Assembly (NCBI GenBank): GCA_001800005.1
Contig: MGUL01000041.1
Span: 31,855 to 74,297, forward strand
Source of the DNA: Elusimicrobia bacterium RBG_16_66_12
GTDB lineage: Bacteria > Elusimicrobiota > Elusimicrobia > UBA1565 > UBA9628
DNA length: 42,443 nucleotides
Direction of reading: 5' to 3'
Part shown: one piece after another, positions 9,222 to 41,087 of the stretch
How the letters are laid out: the number at the start of each line of letters is the position of its first letter
How positions within the stretch are numbered: the first letter of the stretch is position 1
Translations under genes and position numbers: made by a program
The notes under the pieces: generated by a model
The model's input: the letters and a program-made list of their open reading frames with translations, nothing else
What the model was told of the DNA's origin: nothing
Database searches by the model: none

Positions 9222-9248
9222 CAGAGTTAGAAGCTTCAGGCTTTAGAG

Positions 9249-17900: not shown

Positions 17901-17937
17901 AATAAAAAACGGGAAACGATTTTTAGTCGTTCCCCGT
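17901..17937 (-). terminator. Rho-independent terminator (minus strand)
   Basis: The minus-strand RNA reads acggggaacga-cuaaaaa-ucguuucccgu followed by uuuuuuauu. That is an 11-bp stem with one G-U (17937-17927 pairing with 17919-17909) and a U-tract encoded by 17908-17901. A GNRA-capped hairpin cggcc-gaaa-ggccg (17897-17884) follows. Confidence 0.7.
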
Positions 17938-18103
17938 GGCGGGACCCCGGTAAGGCGGGATCGTGGATACCCCGGGGCCAATCCCCCAGGCTACACAGGC
18001 TAATGGGACATTCTAAGTGTAGGGTGCCGGGCTTGAAGTCTCCAGGGCCGTTGGTCCCGCCCGGCGTAGGCCTTGGACACAGGACGAAAGGCCTAGGGAA
18101 CGA
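17927..18103 (-). promoter_or_regulatory. Candidate structured RNA element (riboswitch-like leader, 3' UTR, or small RNA) with a three-way junction
   Basis: Complementary segments were verified by hand. P1 pairs 18096-18103 (gggaacga) with 17927-17934 (tcgttccc). The P2 hairpin pairs 18067-18074 (taggcctt) with 18088-18095 (aaggccta). P3 pairs 17938-17946 (ggcgggacc) with 18053-18061 (ggtcccgcc). The 3' strand of P1 is also the 5' arm of the terminator. I recognise no Rfam family. Confidence 0.3.
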
Positions 18104-18140
18104 ATTCGTGGACCGTAGCCCCACGTGAGACCTGTTTAGC

Positions 18141-20903
18141 CTACGGTACGGGTGACAGCACGATTTTCAGACGCTGTCCGAACGCATCAGGCAGAAGCAC
18201 TCCGCCGGCGTCCCCACTGCCGTCATCTTCCCATTCTGGCCGGTGTCCTAGGATGAACTTAAACCAACGCTCCCGATCCCCGACCCGAAGATGCATTCGC
18301 TCATCAATGGTGCCCGGCAGATACCGACGGTAAATCTTCAAGCACGCGTTCGGGTCGCGTACAAGCTCACGCTCCACTTTACTGCCAAGACGGTCGACTC
18401 GTCCTACCCGCTGTTCTAGACGGGCAGGATTCCACGCCAAGTCGTAGTGCACGACTCGCGCGCATTCGCGGTGAAGATCTATCCCCTCCTGCATCACTTC
18501 AGAAGCAACCAAGACATAGGGCCGAAAAGGGGTATTGAAGCCGTAGCGATATCTACGACGATTGGCAATACTCTCGTCGCCGCTGGCGCGAGCCACCATA
18601 TTCTCAGTACGCAGGCCGCGGGCGAAGCTCCGGATCTCCTCCGCGGGAAGGGTGATAATCTCTTCCAAAAACCGCCGGACCATCCGTTGGACGCGCGGGC
18701 CTTGGGCGGCGGCGAGAAGCGCACGCTCGGCCCGGACACCTCCGCGGCCTCCAAGAGACAACGTGGCCGAGCCGAGAATTTCCGGCACAAATAAGGCCCT
18801 GCCGACCGCATCGAGCAATTCTTCGCGGAGAACCAGATCTTGGATTCCTTCAAGTTGCGCGCGATAAGGTTCCCAGACACTTCTGTGTTTAAGGACTCGA
18901 TCCAGCCACGCTACCAGCTGTTCCTTGGTGCAATAGTGGCTTCGAAGAATCGCGCGTTCATGGTCAGGGGTGAGAATTCGGACGATACGTCGCTTTAGGT
19001 CAACTGGATGGACAACCTCCTTTTTCCAAAACTGGTGGAGTGACGCAATGGTTGCCGAAGAGCCAGTTTGTACCTGACGCCCGAATACAATGCACTCGCA
19101 CAGCGACGCAAGGCTATCCCAGTCAGGTCCATGCGCTTTCCCCTTCAAGCCAACTCGGTAGCCGTTGCCGAATCGCGCGAGTTCTCGGATGACTTCTGGA
19201 TAAATGTCGTTCGCTGATGGACGAGCGCGAAGGTATGCGCAATAGTTCTCCTTGAATAACAGACGCAGCGTGTCGCGTTCGGTCGTAACTCTTTTGCGCA
19301 GGTTACGGAGGAGATGATCGACTTCAGCGCGCGATAGAGGCAGAAGCCCTGCATAAACCTGCTTTTCAAGCGCCAAGTTCAGCGTGGCCTGCAGCGCCTT
19401 GACCGACTCTAGGCGGGCAGTGAAGATCAGCACCTTTTCACCCTTGCGGAACTCATCGCTGACGCTCTGAGAGAGTGCCAAGAGTTTGGGATGTTGACTG
19501 CCATTTCGGCTGAGGAGCTTTCGCATGAGGCCGCGATAGAACGCTACCGAACCGGCGCCTCCTGCACGCCCACGCATCACGGCGCTTTCCCGAAAGGCCT
19601 CCCAAGAGCTCGTCAACGAGAGGCTTTGTACCGCCGAGAATGTCGGTTTCTGGCGTTGATACTCATACAGGAGTCTGTGCAAGACTGCGAAGGGGACCCG
19701 CTCCTTGCTACTGATTGGAATTGGAGTCTGGATTGTCTCCCGGTAGGCGCGCTCCTTAACATTCCGAACAACCCATTTACCTAGGATCGCCTGGAGATCC
19801 CGATGGCCCTGGCAAAGGGTCTCAAATGCGTGCTTGAAGGCAGGGTTGACATTGATTCCCCGAAGCTCCTTTTTGCTCACGACCGACTTATCCGTGGGGG
19901 TTAACGTTTGCCACGCATCTTCAAAGGTGCGGACGAGATCCTGATAGCGTTGGGCGCATGCAGTCACTGTCTCGGCTTCACGATCCATCGATCTGGCCGA
20001 ATGTTCAGTCGAATGTCGGAAGAGCCGCAACATGCTTTGAAGTTCATCAGGGCCCAACTGAAACGGCGTGGCCGTGAGGAAAAGCATGTCACGGAAACAT
20101 CGGTGGAAGACCGACTCCAAAGCTGCGTACTGCTTGCTGTCCGGGTTCTTTAGGTGGTGAGCTTCATCGACCACGACCAAACTAAATCGACGCAGCCGAG
20201 TGCGTATCAGCAACCAGCGGATATGGTCAGCTAGCGGTTTGAGCTTATAAGCCGCCACAGAATCGGGATCAAAAGGCCAGAGGTCCAATTCCTTCAGAGT
20301 TTTGCGGATGGTCTTCTTGAGACTCGGAACCCGCTCATCCAGCCAGGAGAGACGCTTTCGCGCCCATGGTGCGCCCCCCCTACCTCCCAGACGTCGCCAT
20401 AATATTATGCGCGCAGGGCGGTTAAGCCTCGCCGCTCGTGACACGAGGTGATAGACAAGCTCGAGAGTCCGCTTCCGTTCACCTGCCCGGCGTGAAGCAA
20501 GAAAGATGGAGGCTGGGAGGATCCAGACCCGGCTTTTAACCCGCGTCTGCAATAGCTTTTCTAGGGGCCAGTCATAGAGATCTTGGGTCAGAGACATCCG
20601 TCTTCCAACCCCAGGGCTAACGTTCTCCCGCCTAAACCGTTCCAAGTCGCGCGTCCACTTTTCAGCCAAGTCCGCTGAAGGAGTCAGCACGAGTACCCGA
20701 CTCCCAGGATAGCGCACCAGATAATCGGCGATTGCTCCTAGCGCCACATACGTCTTGCCCATCCCTACTTCATCGCTTAGAACCACTCCCGGTTGGACCC
20801 GCAGGCGATCCAGGACTCCCCGCATGGTGGCCGCTTGACGACGGGCGTCGGCAGTGGATACCCGGCGCTGCACTCCTTGGAAGTCGACGCGGACGCGGGC
20901 CAT
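18141..20903 (-). CDS. SNF2-family helicase (second copy, 920 aa)
   Basis: Motif I is VVLSDEVGMGKTYVALGAI. Motif II is LVVVDEAHHLKN. Motif III is MLFLTATPFQLGPDEL. Motifs V/VI are VLVASEVMQEGIDLH...VVHYDLAWNPARLEQRVGRVDRLGS. The ATG at 20903-20901 overlaps the PLD gene stop by 1 nt. Confidence 0.9.
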   Translation of the reverse strand: MARVRVDFQGVQRRVSTADARRQAATMRGVLDRLRVQPGVVLSDEVGMGKTYVALGAIADYLVRYPGSRVLVLTPSADLAEKWTRDLERFRRENVSPGVGRRMSLTQDLYDWPLEKLLQTRVKSRVWILPASIFLASRRAGERKRTLELVYHLVSRAARLNRPARIILWRRLGGRGGAPWARKRLSWLDERVPSLKKTIRKTLKELDLWPFDPDSVAAYKLKPLADHIRWLLIRTRLRRFSLVVVDEAHHLKNPDSKQYAALESVFHRCFRDMLFLTATPFQLGPDELQSMLRLFRHSTEHSARSMDREAETVTACAQRYQDLVRTFEDAWQTLTPTDKSVVSKKELRGINVNPAFKHAFETLCQGHRDLQAILGKWVVRNVKERAYRETIQTPIPISSKERVPFAVLHRLLYEYQRQKPTFSAVQSLSLTSSWEAFRESAVMRGRAGGAGSVAFYRGLMRKLLSRNGSQHPKLLALSQSVSDEFRKGEKVLIFTARLESVKALQATLNLALEKQVYAGLLPLSRAEVDHLLRNLRKRVTTERDTLRLLFKENYCAYLRARPSANDIYPEVIRELARFGNGYRVGLKGKAHGPDWDSLASLCECIVFGRQVQTGSSATIASLHQFWKKEVVHPVDLKRRIVRILTPDHERAILRSHYCTKEQLVAWLDRVLKHRSVWEPYRAQLEGIQDLVLREELLDAVGRALFVPEILGSATLSLGGRGGVRAERALLAAAQGPRVQRMVRRFLEEIITLPAEEIRSFARGLRTENMVARASGDESIANRRRYRYGFNTPFRPYVLVASEVMQEGIDLHRECARVVHYDLAWNPARLEQRVGRVDRLGSKVERELVRDPNACLKIYRRYLPGTIDERMHLRVGDRERWFKFILGHRPEWEDDGSGDAGGVLLPDAFGQRLKIVLSPVP

Positions 20904-22789
20904 CAGCGCATCCAGGCCTTGCGGCCGCGGCTCAGGTAATGGGAGCGGATATTGGACATGCCTCGACTATTGCGGCTGATAAACTGATGCAACCGAGCAG
21001 CCTGCCGGCGGGCCTGGGTGAGCGCCTCCGGCTTGCCGCACCACCGAACAGATGCCACCATGGCACCTAGCTCGAGAAGAGCGAAGCGTCTGAACCCATC
21101 ATCAAGACTGCGGTCGGTGCGGATGCCCTCCGCCAGTCTTGTCACCCCGAGGTCACCAAGGAATACCGCCGTCGCTTCCCCAGTTGAGCCCAAGCGGGCT
21201 GATAGGCGCTTGCGCATCCCCTCTAAGCCTCGAGTAAGTCGCGAGAGTTGCTCCATGTAAGGCACGTCGTCCACGGAAGCATTGCCCATGCGCGAATTTC
21301 TCTTTGCGATCACCCGATCACGGAAACGGGCAAGATTCGCCGCCCCACTAGCGAGATAATCGAGGATATCGGTGTAATGAAGATCGGCCATGCCCGGCAC
21401 TAGAGGCAAGAGTTCTTTGTTCATTACAGCTATTGGAAACTTCGCCTTATTGCTTCCCTCTTGAACGACAAGCCATGCGGTCTTCCCGAGTTTAAATCTG
21501 ATTCGACGTTCATGCGGGAATTGATCCCGGCCACCGTTCGGCCTAGCGATCACCTTGTCCTCATACGCGACTGACCACTTCGCTATCGGCTTGCGGCTTT
21601 CGTACACAATGGTCATTGAACCGGTGAGCGCGTCGTATTCCGCCCCCTGGAGAAACGGTGTCCACAATCTGCCGGTCTGCTCGTCGTCGTTGGGAACAGA
21701 CGACACTTTTGTCCAATCTACGACTCCCTCTGTCGGCGGCAGATGTTTCCGAATGTCGCCCCACGAACCAGTCAAGGCGACAGCGACTTCGGAGTTTGCC
21801 CCAAGCAACCCTGGGCCCGTGAAGTTTGGAGAACCCAGCATAGCCCAGCCCCTACTGCCTGCCCGTGCGACAAAGAGCTTGGCATGAAGCACGCGCGATC
21901 CGGCACGTTCCCCACTTTCCGTGCTTCCTGTGGTCAGGCTTTGATGAATCACGGGACAGGTCGGCTTGGCGAAAGCCAACGCTTCGGCCGACATGCCGGA
22001 CCTATAAACGGGCCCTGTATCGCCGGCATCCTTTCGTACGTACACATGGACAGCTCGAGCTTTCAGGTGGGTCAACGGTTTCGAGCGAGCCCCCCCATCG
22101 AAGAAGGGTGAGACGACGTGTAATTCGTCGAGATCGTCCCGGCCATCCATCAGACGCTTCCATTGATGCAAAATGGGTTGGGCCGACTCGCTATGCAACA
22201 GATTTGTATCTCCTCCAGTAGAGGGCATACGTCGCCGCAGCTCCGTTAAGGCGGCGCTAAGCACGCGCGAGGTAGGCCACTCTTTTCGGCCGATCCTGTT
22301 CAGGTACTCCAGGCTGGAACGTGCCGTCGCGCCGAACTTGTCGCCTCTCTCCGTTGAGGCCACCCAAGCAAGTTCGAGGTTTCTGTGGAAGCCGGCCTCG
22401 GTTAAATTAGCGGACGAGACGATCAAACGAGTGGCTCGATCAAACGCTAACAGGTGCAGCTTGGGGTGGAACGCCGGAAACCTATGGGAAAAGAGCAGGT
22501 CGTAGGAGTCGACGCCCTTCTCGCTCTCGAAGTTAAACCTGTGCTTGTCAGCGAGTACAGCCACCTTTGCCTGACGCAGTCGGCTACGTAACGTCAGAAG
22601 AAACGGGGAGTCATCGCTCTTTTTCCCCGCAGTTCGGTCTGGAGCATCGGCGTCCAGACCAACCAGCATCGGGAGCACGGTCTGCTCTAGATATGAAAGA
22701 TCGAGGTCAAAGGTCGTCAGGACCGCAGCACGAAGCGATTGGCCATCCGGCGGCGTGAAAGCCTCAAGCATCGGCATAACTCGCGTCAT
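20903..22789 (-). CDS. Phospholipase D-family nuclease with two HKD motifs plus a ~280-aa C-terminal region of unknown function
   Basis: HKD-1 is FPAFHPKLHLLAFDRATRLIVSSANLTEAG. HKD-2 is SRVLHAKLFVARAGSRGWAMLGSPNFTGPG. There is an ATGA overlap with the upstream gene (22786-22789). Confidence 0.85.
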   Translation of the reverse strand: MTRVMPMLEAFTPPDGQSLRAAVLTTFDLDLSYLEQTVLPMLVGLDADAPDRTAGKKSDDSPFLLTLRSRLRQAKVAVLADKHRFNFESEKGVDSYDLLFSHRFPAFHPKLHLLAFDRATRLIVSSANLTEAGFHRNLELAWVASTERGDKFGATARSSLEYLNRIGRKEWPTSRVLSAALTELRRRMPSTGGDTNLLHSESAQPILHQWKRLMDGRDDLDELHVVSPFFDGGARSKPLTHLKARAVHVYVRKDAGDTGPVYRSGMSAEALAFAKPTCPVIHQSLTTGSTESGERAGSRVLHAKLFVARAGSRGWAMLGSPNFTGPGLLGANSEVAVALTGSWGDIRKHLPPTEGVVDWTKVSSVPNDDEQTGRLWTPFLQGAEYDALTGSMTIVYESRKPIAKWSVAYEDKVIARPNGGRDQFPHERRIRFKLGKTAWLVVQEGSNKAKFPIAVMNKELLPLVPGMADLHYTDILDYLASGAANLARFRDRVIAKRNSRMGNASVDDVPYMEQLSRLTRGLEGMRKRLSARLGSTGEATAVFLGDLGVTRLAEGIRTDRSLDDGFRRFALLELGAMVASVRWCGKPEALTQARRQAARLHQFISRNSRGMSNIRSHYLSRGRKAWMR

Positions 22790-24096
22790 AGGCGCCGTCC
22801 CGATTCACGGGCCATGCTGATGAGATTGGGTGTGCGATAAGAATAAGTCCCCAAAGCGCCATCCCGTGACGAAGGATAGGCGACGCTGGGATCTAATTCC
22901 CATTTATCCTTACTGTGCGGGTGGAACCAGCGAGGCGTCTGGCGGCGCACCATCTCAGTCTGATGTGTTTCAAGAAGCGCTCGCAGGAGAGAGACGCCAT
23001 CCTCCATGTCCAGCTCCTTTCCCATGGCGAAGTCAGAAAAGACCGGCAGGAAGTTCGCCATGCCAAGAAACGGAAGAAGACGTGCGCGCGTCTTGCGAGC
23101 CAGTTTAAGGGCCTTCTTGAGCGCATTTGAACGTGCGAGCGCGGTCGGAGAACTCGTCCCTCCGCGGCTCACGAGATCGTCCCGGAAAAGATTGAACGCC
23201 TGCATCAACGCTGCGCGATACTCCTCGAGAGCGATGATCGCGGCGGCGCGTCGCTCAAGTTCCTGGCCGCCATCTCCGCGTCCGGCACCGCGGGCGGTTC
23301 TCTTGAGGATTTCGATCTCGTCTCGATCGGCAAGGTTCCTGCGGCGCAGGAAATCAAGGACCATGGTTCGTCGGGCTGGAAGCCCCGACGTCGGCAGGAG
23401 ACGTGTTCGAAGGAGCAACAACTCTTCCGTCAAGGCGTCCTGATCCCGGTGGGTTCCACTCCGCAACTGAAGCCCGAGCCGTGTCCCAATCGCGGCGAGC
23501 CGGCCGCGGCTGCGATTAAATAGGACGCGGCCAGACCGAATGGAATTCGCGCAGGCCCCCTTGTTGCGGCCACCGGCGTCCTGGCTCCAGAATAAGTTCG
23601 CTAGACGGTTCCCAGCTACAGTCAGCTCCGTCACTCCTTCTCTGAGGAGACCAAAGGATTCGAGAGACGTCCGGTATGAACCAAGCGCTCCCAGATCGGG
23701 TTGGCGTTGAATGAACGGGTAGTCTAGCGACGCACTTGAGAAATGCCAATTGCGAAAGAGCGGTTCCACCTTGGTCCGTCCGATGAGACCTCGCGAATTC
23801 TGATCCTCGACCGCGACGTTCCAGGCGACCCAAAGTCTTTCCCAGCGCATAAAGAGCCGCAATCGCTCAATGTCGCGATCGATAGCTTGGCGAACCAGGC
23901 CGCCGAGCTCCTCTTCAATGAGCTGCAGACCGCCGCAGATCATTGAGTAGTAGCGTATCCGCCTCGTCCGTGTGGTGATGCCCGGCAGCCATTCCTCCGC
24001 GAGCCGCATGGCGTACGCATAGAATCCGAGCGGGTCCTCGTTGGTAGCGCCTTTTTCGAGAGGGGCATAGGCAGTCCAACGAACGAGCCCGCTCAT
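22786..24096 (-). CDS. Hypothetical alpha-helical protein (436 aa), no confidently recognised domain
   Basis: This is a long ORF with protein-like composition, embedded in the operon and ATGA-coupled to the PLD gene. The conspicuous N-terminal motif is EDPLGFYAYAMRLAEEWLPGITTRTRRIRYYS. Confidence 0.8.
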   Translation of the reverse strand: MSGLVRWTAYAPLEKGATNEDPLGFYAYAMRLAEEWLPGITTRTRRIRYYSMICGGLQLIEEELGGLVRQAIDRDIERLRLFMRWERLWVAWNVAVEDQNSRGLIGRTKVEPLFRNWHFSSASLDYPFIQRQPDLGALGSYRTSLESFGLLREGVTELTVAGNRLANLFWSQDAGGRNKGACANSIRSGRVLFNRSRGRLAAIGTRLGLQLRSGTHRDQDALTEELLLLRTRLLPTSGLPARRTMVLDFLRRRNLADRDEIEILKRTARGAGRGDGGQELERRAAAIIALEEYRAALMQAFNLFRDDLVSRGGTSSPTALARSNALKKALKLARKTRARLLPFLGMANFLPVFSDFAMGKELDMEDGVSLLRALLETHQTEMVRRQTPRWFHPHSKDKWELDPSVAYPSSRDGALGTYSYRTPNLISMARESGRRL

Positions 24097-24106
24097 GCGT
24101 AGCCCT

Positions 24107-25597
24107 TCAACATGAACCCCGAATCTTCTGGAGCTTGGCGAGAATCTTTACCATAGCGAACGTATCTTGACCGCAGTAAATCTTGAGATTCCTCACAGTC
24201 TTCTTCCGCTCTGCCGCCGGGAGATTACCGCTCATCAGCGCAAGAAACGCCAACTGCGCTTGCTCTCCATTGCCGACAGGGAGGTTTTTATAGGTCATGC
24301 TGGGCACCAAGACTGGGAGAACGGCCTTGATCGACCAGCTGCCCTTAAAGGCGGGATCGACATAGAACGACTTCCGAAACGGATCGCCCAGGTCCCATAA
24401 CCGATTGGCCGCAGACAACAACGCTTTGGCCCGCTTAGGGTAAGCTCCCGCCAAACTTCGTAGGCACTGCCCCTCAAATCCAGCGTTGTACGCTATCACC
24501 GTCCCCCGACCTGAGATCGAGGAAGCTAAGCACTCGACCAAACCCGGGCGTGGATCCGACCGCCCGTCTCCCAGATACTCAACGTGCTTGATAGGTGCCC
24601 CCTCGGTTTCCTGGACGTGGATCGAGGCTTGAAATGGCATCTGCTGGAACGGCCGCAGGCCGTCGTAAGGAGGAATGGCAGGATTTAGAGTTTCAAAATC
24701 AAGGTAGTGGAGCGGATACACAAGGGTATCCAGTAATTCGCCGATTGCGACTTTCTCGATATGAGCCTTCTTCGTCTTCTCGCAGAGGACTTGGATTTCC
24801 TGCGCTCTTGAAAGTGGAAAGTCCTCCGGTACCTCTGCGATCTTGAGAACCCCTCGGCCTTTGAGTTGAATAATCTTCCCTTCACGAATGCGAACCAAGT
24901 CGTAAATGGAGTAGTCTGGAAGACGGCGCCAGCAATGCTCCTGAAAGCTGCATTCATACGGCGAACTACAGTGAGGCCCGATATCGATCTTCGGAGAAGC
25001 GGACGACGATAAGACTCTATGCAACCGGCGAACCTCCGCAGGGACCGCTTTTATGAACGGCTTCAATTTCACGGTGAGGTTGACCAGCGTAAAAAACGAC
25101 TTCGGATTAATAGGGCCACGACGGACGTATTGATTGTTGACATGCATGAGGATGGCCCGGCGCAGCCGGAATCCGGCCCCCTCCAGAATGTAGGCCTGTA
25201 TCGCTAAATCCTGAAGATATACATCGTTGACGTCCGTCGCTCCTTTGACCTCTACAAGATCCCAGGTGCCGTCCGCATTCCGATTGAGGATATCGGAACG
25301 AACCAATGTCTTATCGAATAGCGCGGCAGCCTCATAAATCGTTCGCGCGCCTGAATTGACTGCAGCAGCTGTCGAATCGAGCGCGTGTTGCTGATGCAAG
25401 TAGTCGGCCGTAATATCGACACCACCGGGGAAGCGCGCCCGCGCGAGTCGCCCAATAGCATGCCCTTGATCGAAATTGCGTTGAAGTCCAGGTGGACTCG
25501 GCGGGATGAGATCTTTTCTGTTGCGGTAAAGCCAAAGGGACTTCGGGCATTGCAGGCCGCGGACGTACTGCGACTTCGATAGGACGCCGGACCCCAT
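24107..25597 (-). CDS. DUF2779-family protein (N-terminal RecB/Cas4-like PD-(D/E)xK nuclease plus C-terminal RNase H-fold exonuclease-like domain)
   Basis: The N-terminus is LSKSQYVRGLQCPKSLWLY. The nuclease core is WDLVEVKGATDV...YLQDLAIQAYIL. The DUF2779 hallmark is LHYLDFETLNPAIPPYDGLRPFQQMPFQASIH. The start overlaps the DUF429 stop (TAATG at 25595-25599). Confidence 0.8.
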   Translation of the reverse strand: MGSGVLSKSQYVRGLQCPKSLWLYRNRKDLIPPSPPGLQRNFDQGHAIGRLARARFPGGVDITADYLHQQHALDSTAAAVNSGARTIYEAAALFDKTLVRSDILNRNADGTWDLVEVKGATDVNDVYLQDLAIQAYILEGAGFRLRRAILMHVNNQYVRRGPINPKSFFTLVNLTVKLKPFIKAVPAEVRRLHRVLSSSASPKIDIGPHCSSPYECSFQEHCWRRLPDYSIYDLVRIREGKIIQLKGRGVLKIAEVPEDFPLSRAQEIQVLCEKTKKAHIEKVAIGELLDTLVYPLHYLDFETLNPAIPPYDGLRPFQQMPFQASIHVQETEGAPIKHVEYLGDGRSDPRPGLVECLASSISGRGTVIAYNAGFEGQCLRSLAGAYPKRAKALLSAANRLWDLGDPFRKSFYVDPAFKGSWSIKAVLPVLVPSMTYKNLPVGNGEQAQLAFLALMSGNLPAAERKKTVRNLKIYCGQDTFAMVKILAKLQKIRGSC

Positions 25598-26442
25598 TAT
25601 TCTGTCCTCAGTAGCCCGGCTCCAGCCTTCGGCAGCCAGATAGCTGAATGGTGATCTCCGAATGCGATCGCTCGATCGCTCGCAAACTCAACGCCTACCC
25701 ATGCGCATACGACAGCATCCAATACGTCTTCGATCGCTTTGAGGCCCGGGGCCATACCCGGCTTCTCGAGGATTGTTAATGGGTCTGGGACCAACGCTGA
25801 GACACCGTGAATCCGCTGGCCCAAGGCAGCCCGGAGTTCGCCAAGTTTCTCTGCGACGAACCGGAACCGATCTATCGACATGAGCCCAACGTGATCCTTC
25901 GTGTACGCCCACCTACGCGCGACCTTGTACGGCAAACGATAATCAAGGCCGATCAGCTCGATGATGGCTGGGTGCGGATATGTCTCCAAGAAACATCCAG
26001 TGCGGACTGTGGCCCCAGCGGCCGCAAAGCTAAGTCCCAGCGCTCTAAGGGCATCAAAAACGATAGCCGCCTGCTTGCCCGGACGGTCCGGACTCGGCGA
26101 ATGTGTTCCCGCGCCACGCCCTGAGTATTGTCTTGAGATAGCATCGTCGGATGGCCGACGCCTAACAATACGCTTAGCGGATAGCGGCATATCAACAACA
26201 GCTATATCGACGCGCCCAATCCGAGCGAGCATACCAGCTGAACCTAAATGGGCCTTCGCCGACCAAACAGGAGTCTGGCCAATCTCTGCAAAGGAGCGTC
26301 CCACCCAAACCAACGTCGGCCGCCGGCCTTTGACATAATCAACCAAGGCAAGCCCCGAAGGGTTCTTCGTTGTCCACGCCGCGTCAAAGCCAAGAATCCT
26401 TAGACAGGCCATGGGCTTGCCGGCCTCTGAGACATCCCTCAT
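25597..26442 (-). CDS. DUF429-family protein (predicted RNase H-fold nuclease)
   Basis: The motifs RILGFDAAWTT, AVVDMPLS, LETYPHPAIIELIG...YK and IEDVLDAVVCAWVG follow the DUF429 pattern (GxD...DxP...ExxPh...DxxDA). An alternative start at ATG 26412 (MACLRILGFD) is possible. Confidence 0.75.
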   Translation of the reverse strand: MRDVSEAGKPMACLRILGFDAAWTTKNPSGLALVDYVKGRRPTLVWVGRSFAEIGQTPVWSAKAHLGSAGMLARIGRVDIAVVDMPLSAKRIVRRRPSDDAISRQYSGRGAGTHSPSPDRPGKQAAIVFDALRALGLSFAAAGATVRTGCFLETYPHPAIIELIGLDYRLPYKVARRWAYTKDHVGLMSIDRFRFVAEKLGELRAALGQRIHGVSALVPDPLTILEKPGMAPGLKAIEDVLDAVVCAWVGVEFASDRAIAFGDHHSAIWLPKAGAGLLRTE

Positions 26443-29400
26443 CAGTGTCCTGACCGAGGGCTTCGACGCGGGGTGCTCACTTCCACGGACTTGCGTTCAG
26501 GATGGCAGCATTTCGGATCTGCCGGAGATGGATCAAGTCGAGTTTGAAAAGGGTTGCCGGCACGAATAGATTTGTGCAAGTCATCGTAAATCTCAAGTAT
26601 GACACGCTTGGTCCGATAATCGCCGCCGAACTTCTCTTCATCCTTCCGCCTTACGAGTGGGAAAGTATCCATTATGTGCTCGATAGCGTGGCGCGGCGTC
26701 GGAAACACCTGTGTGAGGTTATCGGGTTGACGCCGCCACTCGTCTTCGGTGCCGAGGTATAGATGGAAGAACGCGGCGTCAAGTTCACATCGAAGCAAGA
26801 ATCGACGTTCGGCATCCCACTTAAAAGGTGGCCCGCTCCATCCGCAATCAGCGGCAAATGGCTCCAGATCCCACGCGGTATAGGTCAACTCTAACGCGCG
26901 GGGAAGAAGCCAATCTTTAGTAAGCAACTTCTTCTTCTGTGGTTTCCCACTTATACTCCACGGGCATATCGAGTCGAAGATTGCAGGAGAGAGGACGGGG
27001 AGTTGCCTGAAAACGTTGTATTTCAAATGCGTTCCGCCTACCTTCTGTCGCGCCGCAAAATCCGACACGAATGAGTCAAGGCAGGCTGGAAGCAACGCTA
27101 CATTTTCTGCAGACGCCGCCGCGGGGAACATCAGGAGAAAAGTGTCGCCACAGGCCGACAGCGGAATAACAGCGGAGATGAGGGTTCTTTCGTTCGTGCT
27201 ATTAGTGATGTCTCTCCACCCAAGGAGCCACTTCCTCTTCCATGAATCAGGAATTGTGGACGATACTTCTTTGCCGGGCACCCAGTCATGTGGCTGAATG
27301 CAGAACATGGGATCTTGCAGCTTCGATATATCCGGCTGCGGAAGTATCCCGACATTCAGCTGCGCCTGAGTCGCCCCATCGTAAGTCGAAAACCTGTGAT
27401 TAAACTGGTGTAGCATCTTAGCCTCATAAAGGGGCAAGTAAGCTAAACCATCTTTCTCAAATTTATTTCCCACAAGCTCCCAACCGTCCGAGGCTAGCTG
27501 CGCACGGGTTCGGAACAGGTGCGAATCGTTCGCCATATGAAACATCGCGCTAAAGGTCAGCCCCCACTGGTTGTCTTGGGGTGCTTCTTCTCGAATCAGC
27601 ACCGGATTTCGCCGATGTAGGGCTTTGCAAATTTCCGCGTCCCGGCCCGATCGGAATACCGGGCAGTTCTTGGCATTGGGATTCAAAAGCAATATTTCAT
27701 CTGCCGTAAGTGAAAACTTCCTCTCACTGTTCTGCACTTCATCTGGATGTCTCGCATAGAAAATGAATTCCGCGACGTCGGATGGTGCAAGGCGCCCACC
27801 AAAAATTAAGAGGCAGAATTTCATGGCGTGGTGAACGCCCGGAAATAAGAGATCTTCGTTTTCAAAACTCCAAAGGCTTGCAAGCGATTTATGTGACACG
27901 ATGTCTTGAAAGAAGAACTTCGTTGTCTCGTCCGTTGCGATTCCTGTAGGCAACACACAGCCGACGCGCCCTTTCGGACCTACATGGTTCTTCATTCCTT
28001 CCGCAAAAATGGCGTAAAGGTTAATGTCACCTCGTCCGCAAAGCGGATAGCGGCCACTATCGCGCATGAAGTGGCTTTCGCCTTCTGACCGGCGGACCGC
28101 AATCTGGAACTGTTCGCGCAGGGCCCGGTCCCCTGGCTCCGCGGAGTCGCTCAGCCGATTGATCAGGCGTTTTCTTTCAGCCGCATTCGGTGCATTTGCG
28201 ATGTCGGGACGTCGCTGGGCAAACCATTCCTTCTCTTGAAGTTTGACCCGTTCCCAAGGCGGGTTACCCAAAATTGCATCGAACCCTCCGCGAACAAAGA
28301 CCTCCGGAAACGCAAGATGCCAATGAAAGAAGTGATGACTTTCCGCGAGGCGCTGGACTTCGTCGAGTAGCGGCTGGTCGTGCTTGGATACCTGGCCATC
28401 GGCTAAGGAGTTAATCAATCCCTGAGTGATCCCGATTACACTCCGCTCATTATCCGGTTCACCGAAATATTTGCGCATGACGAAGGCGGAACACCATACA
28501 TCCGCAAGTCTCTTTTTCTGCCGGAATTCTTCGGTCCGCTCACTCTCTAGAAAGGCTCTTTCTTTACGGTGAACATCCTCTGGGCGGTCGTCGGGCAATT
28601 CGTCAAGTGCGGCGGCGGCTTGCTGCAGGCGTTCTTGGGTTTTAACATCCTGCGTGGCGAACAGATCACCAAAGCCACTGCGCTCGGCCTTATTCCGCTT
28701 CCTCAGAAGCGTGCAAGCCTTCTTGTCGTCCCCCTCGATCGCAGTAAAAGCATCGTCGGGCAAACCGGCGGAAATCAATTCTGGCGTGGTCCCAAGCAAG
28801 CTATTGCCCACACGAATGTGATGGTCGAGGAATGAAAGTGGCTTGCCAGGTTCAACTGCCTCAAGCCAGAGAGCGACACGGCAGAGCTCTACCGACATCG
28901 GATTGATGTCAACGGCGTATATGCAATGGCTAATAACCTGCCGCAGAGCGTGGCGCAGCTGGTCAGGCGCCGGTTCGTCGTCGCCGGCACGCACAAGCGC
29001 CAGACGACGGGCGATTCGTTGAGCCGCCGCAATGAGAAAGTGACCGCTCCCACAAGCTGGGTCGCAGACTTTCAGTGACAAGATGGCCGCCTCGGCGCTA
29101 GGAAATCCGAGGGTTTTGTAGTTGCGCAAGCGATTACTCAGAACGGGATTGAGGGCGCTGTCTAGCAGACAGTCCACCAGACTAGCAGGCGTGTAGTAGC
29201 TCCCGGAGGTCTTTCTATCGTTACCGGCAGCCTGCTTGAAGCTGAAACGGGGTACAGGCGAGGTCAGGACTATAGGATGCAGCTCTAAAAGGCTCTCATA
29301 GACTGCCCCGAATTCCTCCGTCGCAAGAGCTCCAAAATTCACTGGGAGCCTTTGCTTGGTTTTGGGGTCGTCAAACGAACATAGCCGGTCAAGAGCATGG

Positions 29401-30566
29401 AGAAGCGCGGAGTTACTCAGAAGGCATGTGCTTAGCGGTCCAAGGCTCTGAGGATCGAACAACTGTCCCCCGAACGCTGTTGTACCAAGCCGAGCCCCTT
29501 GTTCGGGATGTTCAAACAGCTCAAAAGTAGACAGGAGGGACAGCCAGGCATCACAGTGTCTCTCAGTCTTGAGGCCTCGCGTTCGCGCCAAACGACGCAG
29601 CCGTTGCACGCTATAGTAATCAAAGTAGGTGCGCAACTTCGCGACTGGCGTTTCCTTGGTGAAAATCAGGCCGCGATCCTCTACTACATTTAGAAATAGC
29701 AGGCGGTAGATCAGGCGCAATAAGAAGCCGAAGAATACTGTGTGTTCTAAAGTTCCAGCATCTATCTGCCCGCGGAGGGCCTTGTTTTCTGGATGTGCGA
29801 TAAATCCGGTGCCAAGGATTTCCAGCGCCTCGGTCACGGCCGTGCGTAATCCAGCACGAATGCGAGTCCCCTGCTCAATTGTGTCCTGATGATATCGCTC
29901 GATCAGGCTCTCAGCCGCGGTGCTATTCGTAACCGGAAGCCGACTAGCGTGCAACAATCGAAAGAGAATCGCAAAATCAGAAAAAAGGCCGTCAGTGAAG
30001 ATCCGATCGAGATCGAACTCCAGGTAGCTCAGTTTAATGAGACGTGAACTGTTGCGCAGCAAGCGCAATACGCGACCATTGGTGGCAAGGCCGTAGAGTT
30101 GTTCGCTCAAGTTGAGATATTCCTGAACTAGGCCGTGAGCCGACATGCGCAGCGTGGCGTTGACAGGCTTGCGGTCGAGCGCAGAGGGTTCGCGATAGCC
30201 GACAATCTGCACAGGTATTTGAGCTCGGTTCGAAGCGCGATGTGAAATATTGTAATTCTTGCCGTTTAGTTCGGTTCCCTTGGGTTGATACTCGAGCTGA
30301 TAGCCCAGCAGCCCTAAGAGGGGCATCATCCACTGCTGGCGCGTCTCAGTCGTGGCAGGCGAGTCAGCCTTGAGCGTGTCGAGTTTGCGCTGGAAGATAC
30401 GCCAATAGTCCTGAGCGTCGGCCCAGGCGCGGGCAATCTCGTCCTTAACCTTGGCGTCTGAATCTAGATTGAAATCTACGGGACGTTGCCCCGGCGCCTC
30501 CTCGATCCGTTCGAAGATATCAGATGAAAGAATCGCTCCTTCGATGCGGATACTAGGATAGTTCAC
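26442..30566 (-). CDS. Large N6-adenine DNA methyltransferase (Eco57I/PglX/DrmMI-like gamma-class, 1374 aa)
   Basis: Motif I is LKVCDPACGSGHFLIAAAQRI. Motif IV is FDAILGNPPWERVKLQEKEWF. Long N- and C-terminal extensions are present. The GTG start at 30566 forms a GTGA overlap with the upstream SNF2 stop. Confidence 0.9.
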   Translation of the reverse strand: MNYPSIRIEGAILSSDIFERIEEAPGQRPVDFNLDSDAKVKDEIARAWADAQDYWRIFQRKLDTLKADSPATTETRQQWMMPLLGLLGYQLEYQPKGTELNGKNYNISHRASNRAQIPVQIVGYREPSALDRKPVNATLRMSAHGLVQEYLNLSEQLYGLATNGRVLRLLRNSSRLIKLSYLEFDLDRIFTDGLFSDFAILFRLLHASRLPVTNSTAAESLIERYHQDTIEQGTRIRAGLRTAVTEALEILGTGFIAHPENKALRGQIDAGTLEHTVFFGFLLRLIYRLLFLNVVEDRGLIFTKETPVAKLRTYFDYYSVQRLRRLARTRGLKTERHCDAWLSLLSTFELFEHPEQGARLGTTAFGGQLFDPQSLGPLSTCLLSNSALLHALDRLCSFDDPKTKQRLPVNFGALATEEFGAVYESLLELHPIVLTSPVPRFSFKQAAGNDRKTSGSYYTPASLVDCLLDSALNPVLSNRLRNYKTLGFPSAEAAILSLKVCDPACGSGHFLIAAAQRIARRLALVRAGDDEPAPDQLRHALRQVISHCIYAVDINPMSVELCRVALWLEAVEPGKPLSFLDHHIRVGNSLLGTTPELISAGLPDDAFTAIEGDDKKACTLLRKRNKAERSGFGDLFATQDVKTQERLQQAAAALDELPDDRPEDVHRKERAFLESERTEEFRQKKRLADVWCSAFVMRKYFGEPDNERSVIGITQGLINSLADGQVSKHDQPLLDEVQRLAESHHFFHWHLAFPEVFVRGGFDAILGNPPWERVKLQEKEWFAQRRPDIANAPNAAERKRLINRLSDSAEPGDRALREQFQIAVRRSEGESHFMRDSGRYPLCGRGDINLYAIFAEGMKNHVGPKGRVGCVLPTGIATDETTKFFFQDIVSHKSLASLWSFENEDLLFPGVHHAMKFCLLIFGGRLAPSDVAEFIFYARHPDEVQNSERKFSLTADEILLLNPNAKNCPVFRSGRDAEICKALHRRNPVLIREEAPQDNQWGLTFSAMFHMANDSHLFRTRAQLASDGWELVGNKFEKDGLAYLPLYEAKMLHQFNHRFSTYDGATQAQLNVGILPQPDISKLQDPMFCIQPHDWVPGKEVSSTIPDSWKRKWLLGWRDITNSTNERTLISAVIPLSACGDTFLLMFPAAASAENVALLPACLDSFVSDFAARQKVGGTHLKYNVFRQLPVLSPAIFDSICPWSISGKPQKKKLLTKDWLLPRALELTYTAWDLEPFAADCGWSGPPFKWDAERRFLLRCELDAAFFHLYLGTEDEWRRQPDNLTQVFPTPRHAIEHIMDTFPLVRRKDEEKFGGDYRTKRVILEIYDDLHKSIRAGNPFQTRLDPSPADPKCCHPERKSVEVSTPRRSPRSGH

Positions 30567-40581: not shown

Positions 40582-41087
40582 TAGAAGCTTACCTTGAGGT
40601 TGACCGAGATTTCATGAAGGGACAACTGCCCACACCATCCGCCAAGCTTCTCAACTGCGCGGCTCAGTGGGCGGATGGATTCTGGAATACCAGCCTTGGG
40701 GGCGGTCACGGACGAGGCAAGTACGTTTCCTTTAGCCGCATCCAGCAGGAGCAACTTCGTAGAAAATGCGAGTCGGAGCGCTTCAAGTGAAAGCGGGCGC
40801 ATGGTCGTTGCTCGTCCTTGAATTGCCAGGATCAAATCGTTCTTGGATACGCTCGATTCGCTGAATTTGCCGATGAACGCGCGAAGCCCCGAGGCTAGTC
40901 GAGTGGAATGAAGTTGCTCCATCGTCTCAACGTGAAACGCGATTGGGAGAACTAAAAATAGCAGTGGTAACGGCGGCGGGCTATGAGTGGGGTTTGCTTC
41001 GGTATAGCCGACAACGAACCGCCATAGAAGTAGGGCGCCGAGAGCAGGGTTCTGTACGTTGTTCGCTTCGACGCTGAGGACGCTCAT
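40581..41087 (-). CDS. ABC-3C middle component-like protein (168 aa)
   Basis: The size, the position between effector and ABC ATPase, and the N-terminus NPALGALLLWRFVVGY...LPLLFLVLPIAFH match my recollection of ABC three-component middle components. Both junctions overlap (ATGA at 41084-41087; TAATG at 40579-40583). Confidence 0.65.
   Translation of the reverse strand: MSVLSVEANNVQNPALGALLLWRFVVGYTEANPTHSPPPLPLLFLVLPIAFHVETMEQLHSTRLASGLRAFIGKFSESSVSKNDLILAIQGRATTMRPLSLEALRLAFSTKLLLLDAAKGNVLASSVTAPKAGIPESIRPLSRAVEKLGGWCGQLSLHEISVNLKVSF

What the first reader, a model, noticed from the sequence alone, without database searches (positions are those of the whole stretch)
24107..26442. DUF429 + DUF2779 nuclease pair embedded between the methyltransferase and the PLD/SNF2 module
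Two proteins of uncharacterised families are translationally coupled to each other (TAATG at 25595-25599) and to the upstream methyltransferase (TGATG at 26440-26444).

DUF429 carries GFDAAW, VDMPL, ETYPHP and DVLDAVVCAW, which points to an RNase H fold. DUF2779 carries an N-terminal RecB/Cas4-like LSKSQYVRGLQCPK...DLVEVK module and a C-terminal YLDFET...PFQASIH exonuclease-like module.

I know of no described defence system built on this pair. Their position inside a defence operon makes them candidates for a new two-gene effector or processing module, for example degradation of unmethylated or helicase-unwound DNA.
Basis: partly seen in the sequence, partly recalled or inferred. Interest (0 to 1): 0.75.

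Follow-up and report, generated by a model that had tools for sequence, protein, structure and literature searches.

The report
Two nucleases, not a pair
The two predicted nuclease genes are real, but they are not a conserved two-gene defence system: one (DUF2779) travels with the neighbouring Azaca-like anti-phage genes, and the other (DUF429) is a lone insert in a stack of defence systems.

Summary
Both ORFs, the quoted motifs, the Pfam assignments (DUF429 53 bits, DUF2779 134 bits) and the 1-nt stop/start overlaps are present.

The interpretation as a dedicated pair does not hold.
- No DUF429 gene lies within 10 kb of 105 DUF2779 loci. None of 31 DUF2779 plasmids carries DUF429.
- Only 3 of 92 DUF429 loci have an adjacent DUF2779. 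These represent two lineages at most, and the gene order is the reverse of the window.
- The closest DUF2779 relative (72% identity) has no DUF429.

What recurs instead is DUF2779 beside a ZacA/PLD/SF2-helicase trio, which is Azaca-like (PADLOC ZacB, ZacC, PDC-M27). This is seen in the window and seven other loci, in three arrangements and with at least four divergent trio types.

The upstream helicase–SNF2–methyltransferase genes form a DISARM-like core. On plasmids this core recurs with variable cargo after the methyltransferase, never DUF429 or DUF2779.

Tight coupling does not single out the pair. All ten junctions of the 11-gene array span -4 to +10 nt.

DUF2779 as a Cas4-like plus DEDDy exonuclease fusion, and DUF429 as an RNase H-fold protein, are already published. 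DUF429 is already PADLOC candidate PDC-S44.

The modest new lead is a Cas4–DEDDy accessory nuclease attached to Azaca-like systems.

The parts
25597..26442 (-). DUF429 protein: a single-domain RNase H-fold (RuvC-like) predicted endonuclease of PADLOC type PDC-S44. An alternative start at 26412 (Met11) is possible.
   Evidence: Pfam PF04250 at 53.4 bits. PADLOC PDC-S44 at E=5.5e-27. Invariant acidic/His residues. AF2 pLDDT 93.8 with top PDB fold hit RuvC 6s16 (prob 0.96, E=0.03).
24107..25597 (-). DUF2779 protein: an N-terminal Cas4-like PD-(D/E)xK nuclease with four conserved Cys (putative Fe-S site), fused to a C-terminal DEDDy-type 3'-5' exonuclease-like RNase H-fold domain.
   Evidence: Pfam PF11074 at 133.6 bits. 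PADLOC Cas4 at E=4.6e-8. Invariant C17, D102, E116, K118, C210, C216, C222, D300, E302, E375, D402, Y474, D478. AF2 pLDDT 95.6 with Foldseek hits to Cas4 8d3l/4r5q/4ic1, Exo5, AdnAB and ACE1.
22786..24096 (-). ZacA-like first gene of the Azaca-like trio (436 aa). It starts 10 nt after the DUF2779 stop.
   Evidence: The window protein has no direct Pfam or PADLOC hit. Of a 20-sequence set (its homologues at 38-77% identity plus first genes of more distant trios), 9 hit PADLOC ZacA (best 2e-11), 3 hit PDC-M27A and 1 hits Pfam DUF6361. It is always followed by PLD and helicase genes.
20903..22789 (-). ZacB-like PLD-family nuclease with two HxK...(S/G)SxN motifs (H108/K110 and H302/K304).
   Evidence: Pfam PLDc_2. 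PADLOC ZacB at E=1e-25 and PDC-M27B at 1.5e-10. Motifs read.
18141..20903 (-). ZacC-like SF2/SNF2 helicase (GMGKT Walker A, DEAH box).
   Evidence: Pfam SNF2-rel_dom, ResIII and Helicase_C. PADLOC PDC-M27C at E=3e-52 and ZacC at 3.4e-32. Motifs read.
26442..30566 (-). DrmMI-like N6-adenine DNA methyltransferase. It is the last gene of a DISARM-like three-gene core.
   Evidence: Pfam Eco57I and N6_Mtase. PADLOC DrmMI at E=1.9e-74. The same helicase/SNF2/methyltransferase core appears on 6 of 6 inspected plasmids.
30563..33436 (-). SNF2 helicase of DrmD/DpdE type (DISARM-like core).
   Evidence: PADLOC DpdE model PDLC02853 at E=7e-191 and DrmD at 1.7e-85. NCBIfam DISARM_DrmD at 307 bits, below its cutoff of 610.
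33433..38604 (-). Large DEAD/DEAH helicase with a C-terminal MZB (DUF1998) zinc domain. It is DruE-like and equivalent to a DrmA+DrmB fusion (DISARM-like core).
   Evidence: Pfam DEAD, Helicase_C and MZB. PADLOC DruE at E=1e-77.
38605..42343 (-). ABC-3C three-gene system (CTD7-domain protein, MC3, DUF3732 ATPase) at the head of the same array.
   Evidence: Pfam CTD7, MC3 and DUF3732.
17909..17937 (-). Intrinsic-terminator-like hairpin (11-bp stem followed by a T run) that closes the array.
   Evidence: No comparably strong (11-bp-stem) minus-strand terminator-like site was found between 18.1 and 27.5 kb.

Best explanation
The finding covers two separate things that happen to sit side by side in a horizontally acquired, 24-kb, single-strand stack of defence modules. 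The stack has about 55% GC in a 64-71% GC genome.

**Modules, in order of transcription.**
1. An ABC-3C system.
2. A DISARM-like core: a DruE/DrmAB-like helicase with an MZB domain, a DrmD-like SNF2 helicase, and a DrmMI-like methyltransferase.
3. A lone DUF429 RuvC-like nuclease.
4. A four-gene unit: DUF2779 plus a ZacA/ZacB(PLD)/ZacC(helicase) Azaca-like trio.

**Shown here.** DUF2779 recurs with Azaca-like trios. DUF429 does not recur with DUF2779, with the trio, or with the DISARM-like core, beyond rare cases.

**Inferred mechanism.** This rests on analogy with Bacillus Azaca, where ZacA, ZacB and ZacC are all needed for ATP-dependent cleavage of phage DNA (bioRxiv 10.1101/2025.07.10.664194).
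- The trio recognises and cuts invading DNA.
- DUF2779 then chews the exposed ends in both directions. Its Cas4-like domain would act 5'->3' or as a ssDNA endonuclease, and its DEDDy domain would act 3'->5'.
- This makes cleavage irreversible. It would play the boosting, accessory role that the Cas4-family protein ACE1 plays for long-A Argonautes (PMC12094033).
- DUF429 most likely acts independently as a metal-dependent, structure-specific endonuclease. It was inserted in the variable cargo slot that follows the methyltransferase of this DISARM-like core.
For: **Pair not conserved.**
- A DUF429 HMM found nothing in 83 DUF2779 loci at +-10 kb, in 5 further close relatives or in 17 viral-collection loci.
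- The 31 DUF2779 plasmids and 9 DUF429 plasmids share no record.
- Only L116, L160 and L121 of 80 DUF429 loci have DUF2779 adjacent. L116 and L160 are orthologous loci with shared flanks.

**DUF2779 with the trio.**
- L164: DUF2779 72% and ZacA-like 77% identical to the window, order DUF2779->ZacA->PLD.
- L001: DUF2779-157aa-A-PLD-helicase.
- L165: A-PLD-SNF2-DUF2779, overlapping.
- L173: convergent PLD-helicase.
- L025, Parcubacteria: DUF2779-262aa-A-B-C.
- L049: trio 5 kb away. L002/L003: degenerate trio.
- Five of the nine closest DUF2779 relatives (54-72% identity) carry the trio.
- The trios fall into at least four types with 30% identity or less between them, while the DUF2779 proteins of the three Elusimicrobia-type trio groups stay 55-72% identical to one another.
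- A Planktothrix plasmid has helicase-ATPase-DUF2779-PLD.

**Trio identity.** PADLOC ZacB, ZacC and PDC-M27B/C hits. Relatives of the ZacA-like protein hit ZacA, PDC-M27A and DUF6361.

**DISARM-like core with variable cargo.** The cargo after the methyltransferase is McrBC, SMC+HNH, AAA+radical SAM, Rpn/PIN, or nothing.

**DUF429 contexts.** Neighbours are mostly metabolic.

**Single transcription unit.** All junction gaps are 10 nt or less, and there is one strong terminator at 17.9 kb.
Against: - The DUF2779-trio link is partial. The same trio type occurs without DUF2779 in L167, L168, L170 and L172.
- Most DUF2779 genes (about 75 of 80 species representatives) have no trio nearby.
- DUF2779 also sits in an SOS-like LexA/ImuB/SRAP cassette and behind WYL regulators (13 of 83 loci). 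That fits a general DNA-repair enzyme as well as it fits a defence accessory.
- A weak three-way network exists. DUF2779->DUF429 occurs in L116, L160 and L121, and DUF429 lies divergently next to a PDC-M27 trio in L151/L145. Some functional link of DUF429 to the other genes therefore cannot be excluded.
- No biochemical activity, interaction or phenotype was tested. Many samples are metagenomic contigs with short flanks (median 3.8 kb of total flank for the DUF429 loci).
Confidence: 0.6

Rival explanations
1. One reading: DUF429 and DUF2779 form a dedicated two-gene nuclease effector or processing module. They are co-translated and act together on DNA that the neighbouring methyltransferase or helicases leave unmethylated or unwound.
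For: - A 1-nt stop/start overlap joins the two genes, and both have intact catalytic residues.
- The adjacency recurs in the opposite order, on the same strand with 16-47 nt spacing, in L116, L160 and L121.
- In L116 the pair lies beside Mza and PDC-M61 defence genes.
- Chance adjacency of two specific families is expected to be far below 3 in about 100 neighbours.
Against: - DUF429 is absent from 105 DUF2779 loci and 31 plasmids, and DUF2779 is adjacent in only 3 of 92 DUF429 loci.
- L116 and L160 are one lineage. Independent events therefore number two or three, counting the window.
- The closest relative of the window's DUF2779 lacks DUF429.
- The best DUF429 relatives are only 43-46% identical and sit among metabolic genes.
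- Overlapping junctions characterise the whole 11-gene array.
Confidence: 0.12
2. DUF429 is the nuclease effector of the DISARM-like core and fills the place of DrmC. The methyltransferase marks self DNA, the two helicases scan, and DUF429 cuts unmodified invader DNA. DUF2779 belongs to the downstream Azaca-like unit.
For: - DUF429 directly follows the methyltransferase, either by TGATG overlap or within 27 nt.
- The core has no nuclease of its own.
- In homologous cores this slot often holds nucleases: McrBC, HNH or Rpn.
- In L123 a DrmC-like PLD lies immediately upstream of a DUF429 gene.
Against: - None of 6 inspected homologous cores has DUF429, and one (Rhodococcus) has nothing after the methyltransferase.
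- None of 80 DUF429 loci contains homologues of the window's methyltransferase or DruE-like helicase; one (L151) has a weak match to the SNF2a helicase, on the helicase of its PDC-M27-type trio.
- DUF429 relatives are mostly in non-defence contexts.
Confidence: 0.2
3. There is no functional link at all. DUF2779 is a general DNA-repair and end-processing enzyme, and DUF429 is a housekeeping-type nuclease. Both were swept into a defence island by the gene shuffling that builds such islands, and their neighbours carry no information about their function.
For: - DUF2779 lies in an SOS-type cassette in L174 and behind WYL regulators in 13 of 83 loci.
- It is quasi-essential in JCVI-syn3.0 (PMC13621843).
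- Neighbours of both families are highly variable.
- Majorek et al. noted that DUF429 context is conserved only among close taxa (PMC3985635).
Against: - The DUF2779-trio adjacency repeats with four divergent trio types in three arrangements, including overlapping reading frames.
- A DUF2779-PLD adjacency also occurs on a cyanobacterial plasmid.
- That much repetition is hard to get from random island shuffling.
Confidence: 0.2

Closest known systems
Azaca (ZacABC; Millman et al. 2022 by my recollection; biochemistry in bioRxiv 10.1101/2025.07.10.664194) and PADLOC candidate PDC-M27
   Same: - The window has the three-gene order: unknown or DUF6361-type protein, PLD nuclease, SF2 helicase, with overlapping reading frames.
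- PADLOC ZacB, ZacC and PDC-M27B/C models hit the window proteins.
- Relatives of the first gene hit ZacA, PDC-M27A and DUF6361.
   Different: - The window's ZacA-like protein itself matches no model.
- A fourth gene, DUF2779 (Cas4-like plus DEDDy nuclease), is attached here and in seven other loci. The published three-gene Azaca and PDC-M27 definitions do not include it.
- No phage-defence activity has been shown for this variant.
ACE1, the Argonaute-associated Cas4-family nuclease (PMC12094033), and solo-Cas4 proteins (PMC5704561)
   Same: - A Cas4-family nuclease is encoded outside CRISPR loci, beside a different DNA-targeting defence enzyme.
- ACE1 structures are among the fold matches of the DUF2779 N-terminal domain.
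- ACE1 boosts interference rather than being essential, which is the role proposed here.
   Different: - DUF2779 carries an extra DEDDy exonuclease domain.
- Its partner is a PLD-helicase trio, not an Argonaute.
- No interaction or activity data exist for it.
MMSYN1_0389 / UU173-type DUF2779 proteins of mycoplasmas (PMC13621843) and family F.17 of the RNase H-like superfamily survey (PMC3985635)
   Same: - The domain fusion is the same: Cas4-like plus DEDD(y) exonuclease.
- The same D/E/K and DEDD-Y residues are conserved.
   Different: - The window protein keeps all four Cys of the Cas4 Fe-S site, whereas the mycoplasma protein keeps two.
- The mycoplasma protein is longer. NCBIfam UU173_fam reaches only 40 bits against a cutoff of 225.
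DISARM class 1 (DrmD, DrmMI, DrmA, DrmB, DrmC) and the Druantia DruE helicase
   Same: - An SNF2 helicase, a large N6-adenine methyltransferase and a helicase with a DUF1998/MZB domain sit in one operon.
- The core is conserved across phyla on plasmids.
   Different: - DrmA and DrmB equivalents are fused in a DruE-like 1723-aa protein.
- The DrmD match is below the NCBIfam equivalog cutoff.
- There is no DrmC. The nearby PLD is ZacB-like and belongs to the separate trio.
PADLOC PDC-S44 (single-gene phage-defence candidate)
   Same: The window DUF429 protein matches the PDC-S44 model over nearly its full length (E=5.5e-27), as does the L116 DUF429 protein.
   Different: - PDC-S44 is a computational candidate. 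I found no experimental test of it.
- Neighbours of this DUF429 subfamily are mostly non-defence genes.

Membership tests
Pfam DUF429 (PF04250), RNase H-like clade D | Profile score above the gathering threshold. | tested here: met
   53.4 bits against 23.
Pfam DUF429 (PF04250), RNase H-like clade D | RNase H-like (RuvC-type) fold with conserved acidic active-site residues. | tested here: met
   AF2 pLDDT 93.8. The top PDB fold hit is RuvC 6s16 (prob 0.96), but with a weak E-value of 0.03 and TM 0.35/0.53. Invariant D10, D74, D89, E143, H147, E228 and D232.
Pfam DUF2779 (PF11074) | Profile score above the gathering threshold over the full domain. | tested here: met
   133.6 bits against 23.3, covering profile positions 1-126 of 126.
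Pfam DUF2779 (PF11074) | N-terminal Cas4/RecB-like PD-(D/E)xK domain, plus DEDD-type exonuclease motifs. | tested here: met
   D102, E116, K118, four Cys, D300, E302, E375, D478 and Y474 are conserved. Foldseek hits to Cas4 8d3l (E=2.9e-5), 4r5q and 4ic1. The C-terminal domain gives only weak RNase H hits.
CRISPR adaptation Cas4 | Encoded with cas1/cas2 next to a CRISPR array. | tested here: not met
   The window has no tandem repeats. Apart from the weak Cas4 match of the DUF2779 protein itself and weak Cas3d matches of the DruE-like helicase, none of the eight array proteins scanned against PADLOC matches a Cas family, and the three ABC-3C proteins have non-Cas Pfam assignments. Pfam Cas_Cas4 reaches 18.2 bits, below its cutoff of 22.7.
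   0 of 105 DUF2779 loci and 0 of 31 plasmids; 3 of 92 DUF429 loci.
Azaca (ZacABC) / PDC-M27 | ZacB: PLD-family nuclease with HKD motifs. | tested here: met
   PADLOC ZacB at E=1e-25. Pfam PLDc_2 at 32.9 bits against 27. Two HxK...SxN motifs.
Azaca (ZacABC) / PDC-M27 | ZacC: SF2 helicase with Walker A and DEAH motifs. | tested here: met
   PADLOC PDC-M27C at 3e-52 and ZacC at 3.4e-32. GMGKT and DEAH motifs are present.
Azaca (ZacABC) / PDC-M27 | ZacA: DUF6361-type first gene. | tested here: inconclusive
   The window protein has no hit. In a 20-sequence set (its homologues plus first genes of more distant trios), 9 hit ZacA, 3 hit PDC-M27A and 1 hits DUF6361.
Azaca (ZacABC) / PDC-M27 | Protects against phage, with all three proteins required for DNA cleavage. 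| not testable with these tools
   Known only for Bacillus Azaca (bioRxiv 10.1101/2025.07.10.664194).
DISARM class 1 | DrmD equivalog-level match. | tested here: not met
   NCBIfam DISARM_DrmD at 307 bits against a cutoff of 610. The PADLOC DrmD and DpdE models do match.
DISARM class 1 | DrmMI methyltransferase plus a helicase with a DUF1998 domain in one operon. | tested here: met
   PADLOC DrmMI at 1.9e-74. The MZB (DUF1998) domain lies in the 1723-aa helicase.
DISARM class 1 | DrmC PLD nuclease as part of the operon. | tested here: not met
   The only PLD gene scores far better as ZacB than as DrmC (1e-25 against 1.2e-7). It co-varies with the ZacA- and ZacC-like genes.

The most novel reading that the evidence does not exclude
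DUF2779 is a Cas4-like/DEDDy double nuclease with no known function, and one member is quasi-essential in the minimal cell JCVI-syn3.0. In the most novel reading, it is a recurrent fourth component of Azaca-like PLD-helicase defence systems. DUF429-type RuvC-like nucleases would be occasional further add-ons. Under this reading, DNA-end-processing nucleases are modular boosters that plug into helicase-nuclease immune systems. This would parallel ACE1 with Argonautes and Cas4 with Cas1-Cas2.
Probability: 0.35. Interest if true: 0.55.

Novelty: new variant of a known kind. Interest (0 to 1): 0.35.

Why it matters
If the DUF2779-Azaca link is functional, it gives the first testable context for a widespread uncharacterised nuclease family. 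It would also add an end-processing accessory to a defence system whose mechanism is only starting to be studied.

The analysis is also a caution. In tightly packed defence arrays, overlapping stop and start codons do not delimit functional modules. Comparative gene neighbourhoods do.

The pair as originally proposed is not a system and needs no further follow-up as such.

Tried and rejected
- **Solved structures by sequence.** Profile searches of both families against PDB sequences found nothing meaningful. Structure prediction plus Foldseek was needed instead.
- **Phage genomes.** Neither protein has a match in INPHARED phages, so a phage or anti-defence origin was dropped. IMG/VR gave 17 DUF2779 and 2 DUF429 loci, with no co-occurrence.
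- **CRISPR adaptation role for the Cas4-like domain.** Rejected: the window has no repeats and no adjacent cas genes.
- **Integration-site signature.** The window holds no tRNA gene.
- **WYL regulator in L164.** The 333-aa gene upstream of DUF2779 in L164 is not similar to the WYL regulator of L001/L002. A fixed WYL-DUF2779-Azaca layout is therefore not supported.
- **DUF429 as part of the DISARM-like core.** Six homologous cores on plasmids lack it.
- **Direct match of the 436-aa protein to DUF6361, ZacA or PDC-M27A.** None was found. Only transitive evidence through relatives exists.
- **Internal promoters or terminators that would split the array.** The scans gave no more than shuffled sequence does.
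- **Limits.** The neighbours of L160, and the distant DUF2779 subfamily that pairs with DUF429, could not be annotated further.


Full report
**What is in the window.** The finding lies on the minus strand, inside an array of eleven co-directional genes from 42343 to 18141. The array has 51-60% GC, against 64-71% in the sequence to its left. The contig comes from the MAG 'Elusimicrobia bacterium RBG_16_66_12'. In order of transcription, Pfam, PADLOC and NCBIfam scans give the following.

- An ABC-3C system: CTD7, MC3 and DUF3732 proteins (42343-38605).
- A 1723-aa DEAD/DEAH helicase with an MZB/DUF1998 domain. It is DruE-like (PADLOC E=1e-77).
- A 957-aa SNF2 helicase of DrmD/DpdE type.
- A 1374-aa DrmMI-like N6-adenine methyltransferase (E=1.9e-74).
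- DUF429 (281 aa).
- DUF2779 (496 aa).
- A 436-aa protein with no family hit.
- A 628-aa PLD protein (PADLOC ZacB 1e-25, PDC-M27B 1.5e-10).
- A 920-aa SF2 helicase (PDC-M27C 3e-52, ZacC 3.4e-32).

A strong terminator-like hairpin at 17937-17909 closes the array.

**Check of the observation.**
- Both ORFs and all quoted motifs are present.
- The Pfam assignments are well above threshold.
- TAATG and TGATG are in the sequence.
- The overlaps are not a property of this pair. All ten junctions in the array have gaps of -4 to +10 nt. DUF2779 is only 10 nt from the next gene.
- The DUF429 start is uncertain. NCBI annotates Met11, and that fits the family's short N-terminus better. The upstream ATG has the better AGGA Shine-Dalgarno spacing (read).

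**What the two proteins are.**
- DUF429: 46 homologues share invariant D10, D74, D89, E143, H147, E228 and D232, numbered from Met11. The AlphaFold2 model is confident (pLDDT 93.8). Its best solved-structure neighbour is RuvC (prob 0.96). All matches are weak (E at least 0.03), and other RNase H-fold nucleases follow. This agrees with Majorek et al. 2014, who placed DUF429 in the RuvC-containing clade D (PMC3985635).
- DUF2779: 40 homologues share C17, D102, E116, K118, Q134, C210, C216 and C222. That is a Cas4-type PD-(D/E)xK site plus a four-Cys cluster. They also share D300, E302, E375, D402, Y474 and D478, a DEDDy-type exonuclease site. The model (pLDDT 95.6) matches Cas4 (8d3l, 4r5q, 4ic1), Exo5, AdnAB and ACE1.
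- The DUF2779 fusion is already described: family F.17 in PMC3985635, and MMSYN1_0389 in PMC13621843.
- Neither protein has a sequence-detectable relative of solved structure.

**Test of the pair.**
- I collected 80 species-representative genomic loci around DUF2779 homologues (35-58% identity, +-10 kb) and three metagenomic loci. A DUF429 HMM built from 118 homologues found no hit in any of these 83 loci.
- It found none in five further close relatives and none in 17 IMG/VR loci.
- tblastn found DUF2779 on 31 plasmids and DUF429 on 9, with no shared record.
- In the other direction, 3 of 80 metagenomic DUF429 loci have DUF2779 immediately upstream on the same strand. In L116 and L160 the gene is full-length, with 16-47 nt spacing. 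In L121 only a C-terminal fragment remains at the contig end.
- That order is the reverse of the window. L116 and L160 share flanking genes at 66-84% identity, so they count as one lineage.
- Two IMG/VR DUF429 loci and the locus of the relative P0123 (44% identity) lack DUF2779.
- The adjacency is therefore rare but probably not random. It rests on two or three independent events counting the window. It is absent from more than 95% of each family sampled.
- Divergence also differs. DUF2779 has relatives at 72, 66 and 60% identity, whereas the best DUF429 relative is about 44% identical. That is not the pattern of a co-inherited pair.

**What DUF2779 actually travels with.** Neighbourhoods of its closest relatives show an unknown/PLD/helicase trio next to it, in varying layouts.

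| Locus | DUF2779 identity to window | Arrangement |
|---|---|---|
| L164 | 72% | DUF2779 -> 436-aa protein (77% identical to the window's) -> PLD; no DUF429 |
| L001 | 60% | DUF2779-157aa-410aa-PLD-helicase |
| L165 | 60% | 423aa (weak DUF6361)-PLD-SNF2-DUF2779, with overlap |
| L173 | 55% | PLD-helicase convergent on DUF2779 |
| L002/L003 | 57% | degenerate version of the trio |
| L025 (Parcubacteria) | 39% | DUF2779-262aa-A-B-C |
| L049 | 38% | trio 5 kb away |

- Five of the nine nearest relatives (54-72% identity) have the trio.
- The trios are of at least four types that are barely alignable with one another. The DUF2779 proteins of the three Elusimicrobia-type groups stay 55-72% identical to one another; those next to the PDC-M27-type trios (L025, L049) are about 40% identical to them.
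- A Planktothrix plasmid carries helicase-ATPase-DUF2779-PLD.
- The link is not obligatory. The window-type trio occurs without DUF2779 in L167, L168, L170 and L172. In some of these loci (L170/L171 and L172) other nucleases lie nearby (REase-ARP, Mrr, HNH).
- Most DUF2779 genes have no trio nearby.
- Other recurrent contexts are an upstream WYL regulator in 13 of 83 loci and an SOS-like LexA/ImuB/SRAP cassette in L174.

**Identity of the trio.**
- The PLD protein has two HxK...(S/G)SxN motifs. The helicase has GMGKT and DEAH motifs.
- The 436-aa protein has only 15 detectable relatives. Scanned together with the first genes of four more distant trios and the window protein (20 sequences), 9 hit PADLOC ZacA, 3 hit PDC-M27A and 1 hits Pfam DUF6361.
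- ZacA (DUF6361), ZacB (PLD) and ZacC (SF2 helicase) make up Azaca. In that system all three proteins and the ZacC Walker A motif are needed to cleave phage T4 DNA (bioRxiv 10.1101/2025.07.10.664194).
- The window trio is therefore an Azaca-like system, with divergent members.

**The upstream genes.**
- tblastn of the methyltransferase against plasmids found 110 records.
- All six inspected carry the same core: a large DEAD/DEAH helicase, an SNF2-type helicase and the methyltransferase.
- What follows the methyltransferase varies: McrB/McrC (Nocardioides), SMC-like+HNH (Mesorhizobium), AAA+radical SAM (Nostoc), DUF2513/Rpn/PIN (Chroococcidiopsis), the large helicase itself (Thermus), or nothing (Rhodococcus).
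- None has DUF429 or DUF2779.
- This is a DISARM-like core with a variable cargo slot, and DUF429 occupies that slot in the window.

**DUF429 contexts.**
- Of 101 immediate neighbours of DUF429 genes, only a handful hit defence models (GajB, DrmC, HmaC and mad2, one each). Most are metabolic or housekeeping genes.
- Within a DUF429 subclade about 35% identical to the window protein, some members sit by nucleases or defence genes: DUF2779 (L116, L160, L121), a DrmC-like PLD (L123), and a PDC-M27 trio, divergently oriented (L151/L145).
- This leaves open a loose association between DUF429, DUF2779 and Azaca-like trios. It is too thin to call a system.

**Most likely mechanism.**
- Shown: the array is a stack of separable modules, and DUF2779 belongs with the Azaca-like trio.
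- Inferred: the trio recognises and cuts foreign DNA, as Bacillus Azaca does.
- Inferred: DUF2779 resects the resulting ends from both polarities through its two nuclease domains. This blocks repair or replication of the fragments, and parallels the boosting role of ACE1 for Argonautes (PMC12094033).
- Inferred: DUF429 is a separate metal-dependent endonuclease of RuvC type. It could act alone (as in PADLOC's single-gene candidate PDC-S44) or serve the nuclease-less DISARM-like core.
- I give 0.6 to this overall reading, 0.12 to the two-gene-module reading, and about 0.2 each to 'DUF429 is the DISARM-like effector' and 'no functional links at all'. The DISARM-effector reading is a sub-option of the main one, so these figures overlap and are not meant to sum to 1.

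**Novelty and score.** The domain architectures, the RNase H-fold assignment, the PDC-S44 candidate, Azaca and DISARM are all known. What appears new is the repeated attachment of a DUF2779 nuclease to Azaca-like trios. I found no paper linking them. That makes this a new variant of a known kind, of moderate interest (0.35). The pair as proposed does not merit its original 0.75.

Noticed in passing
window 26442-38604; loci L194-L199: The large DEAD/DEAH-MZB helicase, SNF2 helicase and 1300-1600-aa N6-methyltransferase form a three-gene core. It is conserved on plasmids of Actinomycetota, Cyanobacteria, Alphaproteobacteria and Deinococcota. A variable cargo slot follows the methyltransferase: McrBC, SMC+HNH, AAA+radical SAM, Rpn/PIN, or nothing.
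   Followed up: partly
window 38605-42343: A complete ABC-3C three-component system (CTD7-domain protein, MC3, DUF3732 ATPase) heads the same array. Its last gene abuts the DruE-like helicase with a 0-nt gap.
   Followed up: no
window 9000-12000: A second low-GC patch (0.505-0.519 against 0.63-0.71 around it) carries four plus-strand ORFs (9249-10124, 10273-10914, 11088-11981, and 8467-9153 at its edge). It is possibly another acquired island and was not annotated.
   Followed up: no
window 17876-18124: The 82-aa ORF after the last helicase has no family hit, and the strong terminator hairpin (17937-17909) lies inside it. It is probably not a gene.
   Followed up: partly
L001 3868-4809, L002 8715-9656 and 11 other DUF2779 loci: An HTH-WYL-WCX regulator lies upstream of DUF2779, mostly on the same strand, in 13 of 83 loci. 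This suggests that DUF2779 expression responds to DNA damage or nucleic-acid signals.
   Followed up: partly
L174 728-4777: DUF2779 is the last gene, with overlapping frames, of a LexA-like peptidase S24 / Y-family polymerase (IMS) / SRAP cassette. That is an SOS-mutagenesis-type operon. A Dam-like methyltransferase and a DUF499 protein lie nearby.
   Followed up: no
L116 648-7874: The DUF2779->DUF429 pair of L116 sits next to MzaB/MzaC (E=1e-117 and 1e-241) and PDC-M61A/B genes. These are absent from the orthologous locus L160, so they are a defence-island insertion beside a conserved chromosomal site.
   Followed up: partly
L172 1-15424: An Azaca-like trio is preceded by an Eco57I-type methyltransferase (1537 aa), three unknown genes, an RNase H/zinc-ribbon protein and a REase-ARP nuclease. 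A TIR-domain protein lies a short way downstream, after a 250-aa unknown gene. The layout loosely parallels the window (methyltransferase ... RNase H-fold protein, nuclease, trio).
   Followed up: no
L201 (Planktothrix plasmid NZ_LR882954.1) and L166 11102-14522: A DEAD-box helicase (about 540 aa) and a HATPase/ATP-binding protein (about 600 aa) lie near DUF2779 in both loci. In Planktothrix they lie directly upstream of DUF2779, with a PAPS-reductase-family gene and a PLD gene nearby. In L166 they lie about 5 kb downstream of DUF2779, with DndB nearby. This is possibly another defence system that recruits DUF2779.
   Followed up: no
L203 (Arcobacter plasmid), L116 7933-8355 and L160 7434-8465: A 5'-nucleotidase gene lies next to DUF2779 in unrelated organisms. 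In Arcobacter a PD-(D/E)XK nuclease is on the other side.
   Followed up: no
window 26412-26442: The DUF429 start codon is ambiguous. ATG 26442 overlaps the methyltransferase stop and has an AGGA five nt upstream. ATG 26412 (Met11, the NCBI call) fits the family N-terminus better.
   Followed up: partly
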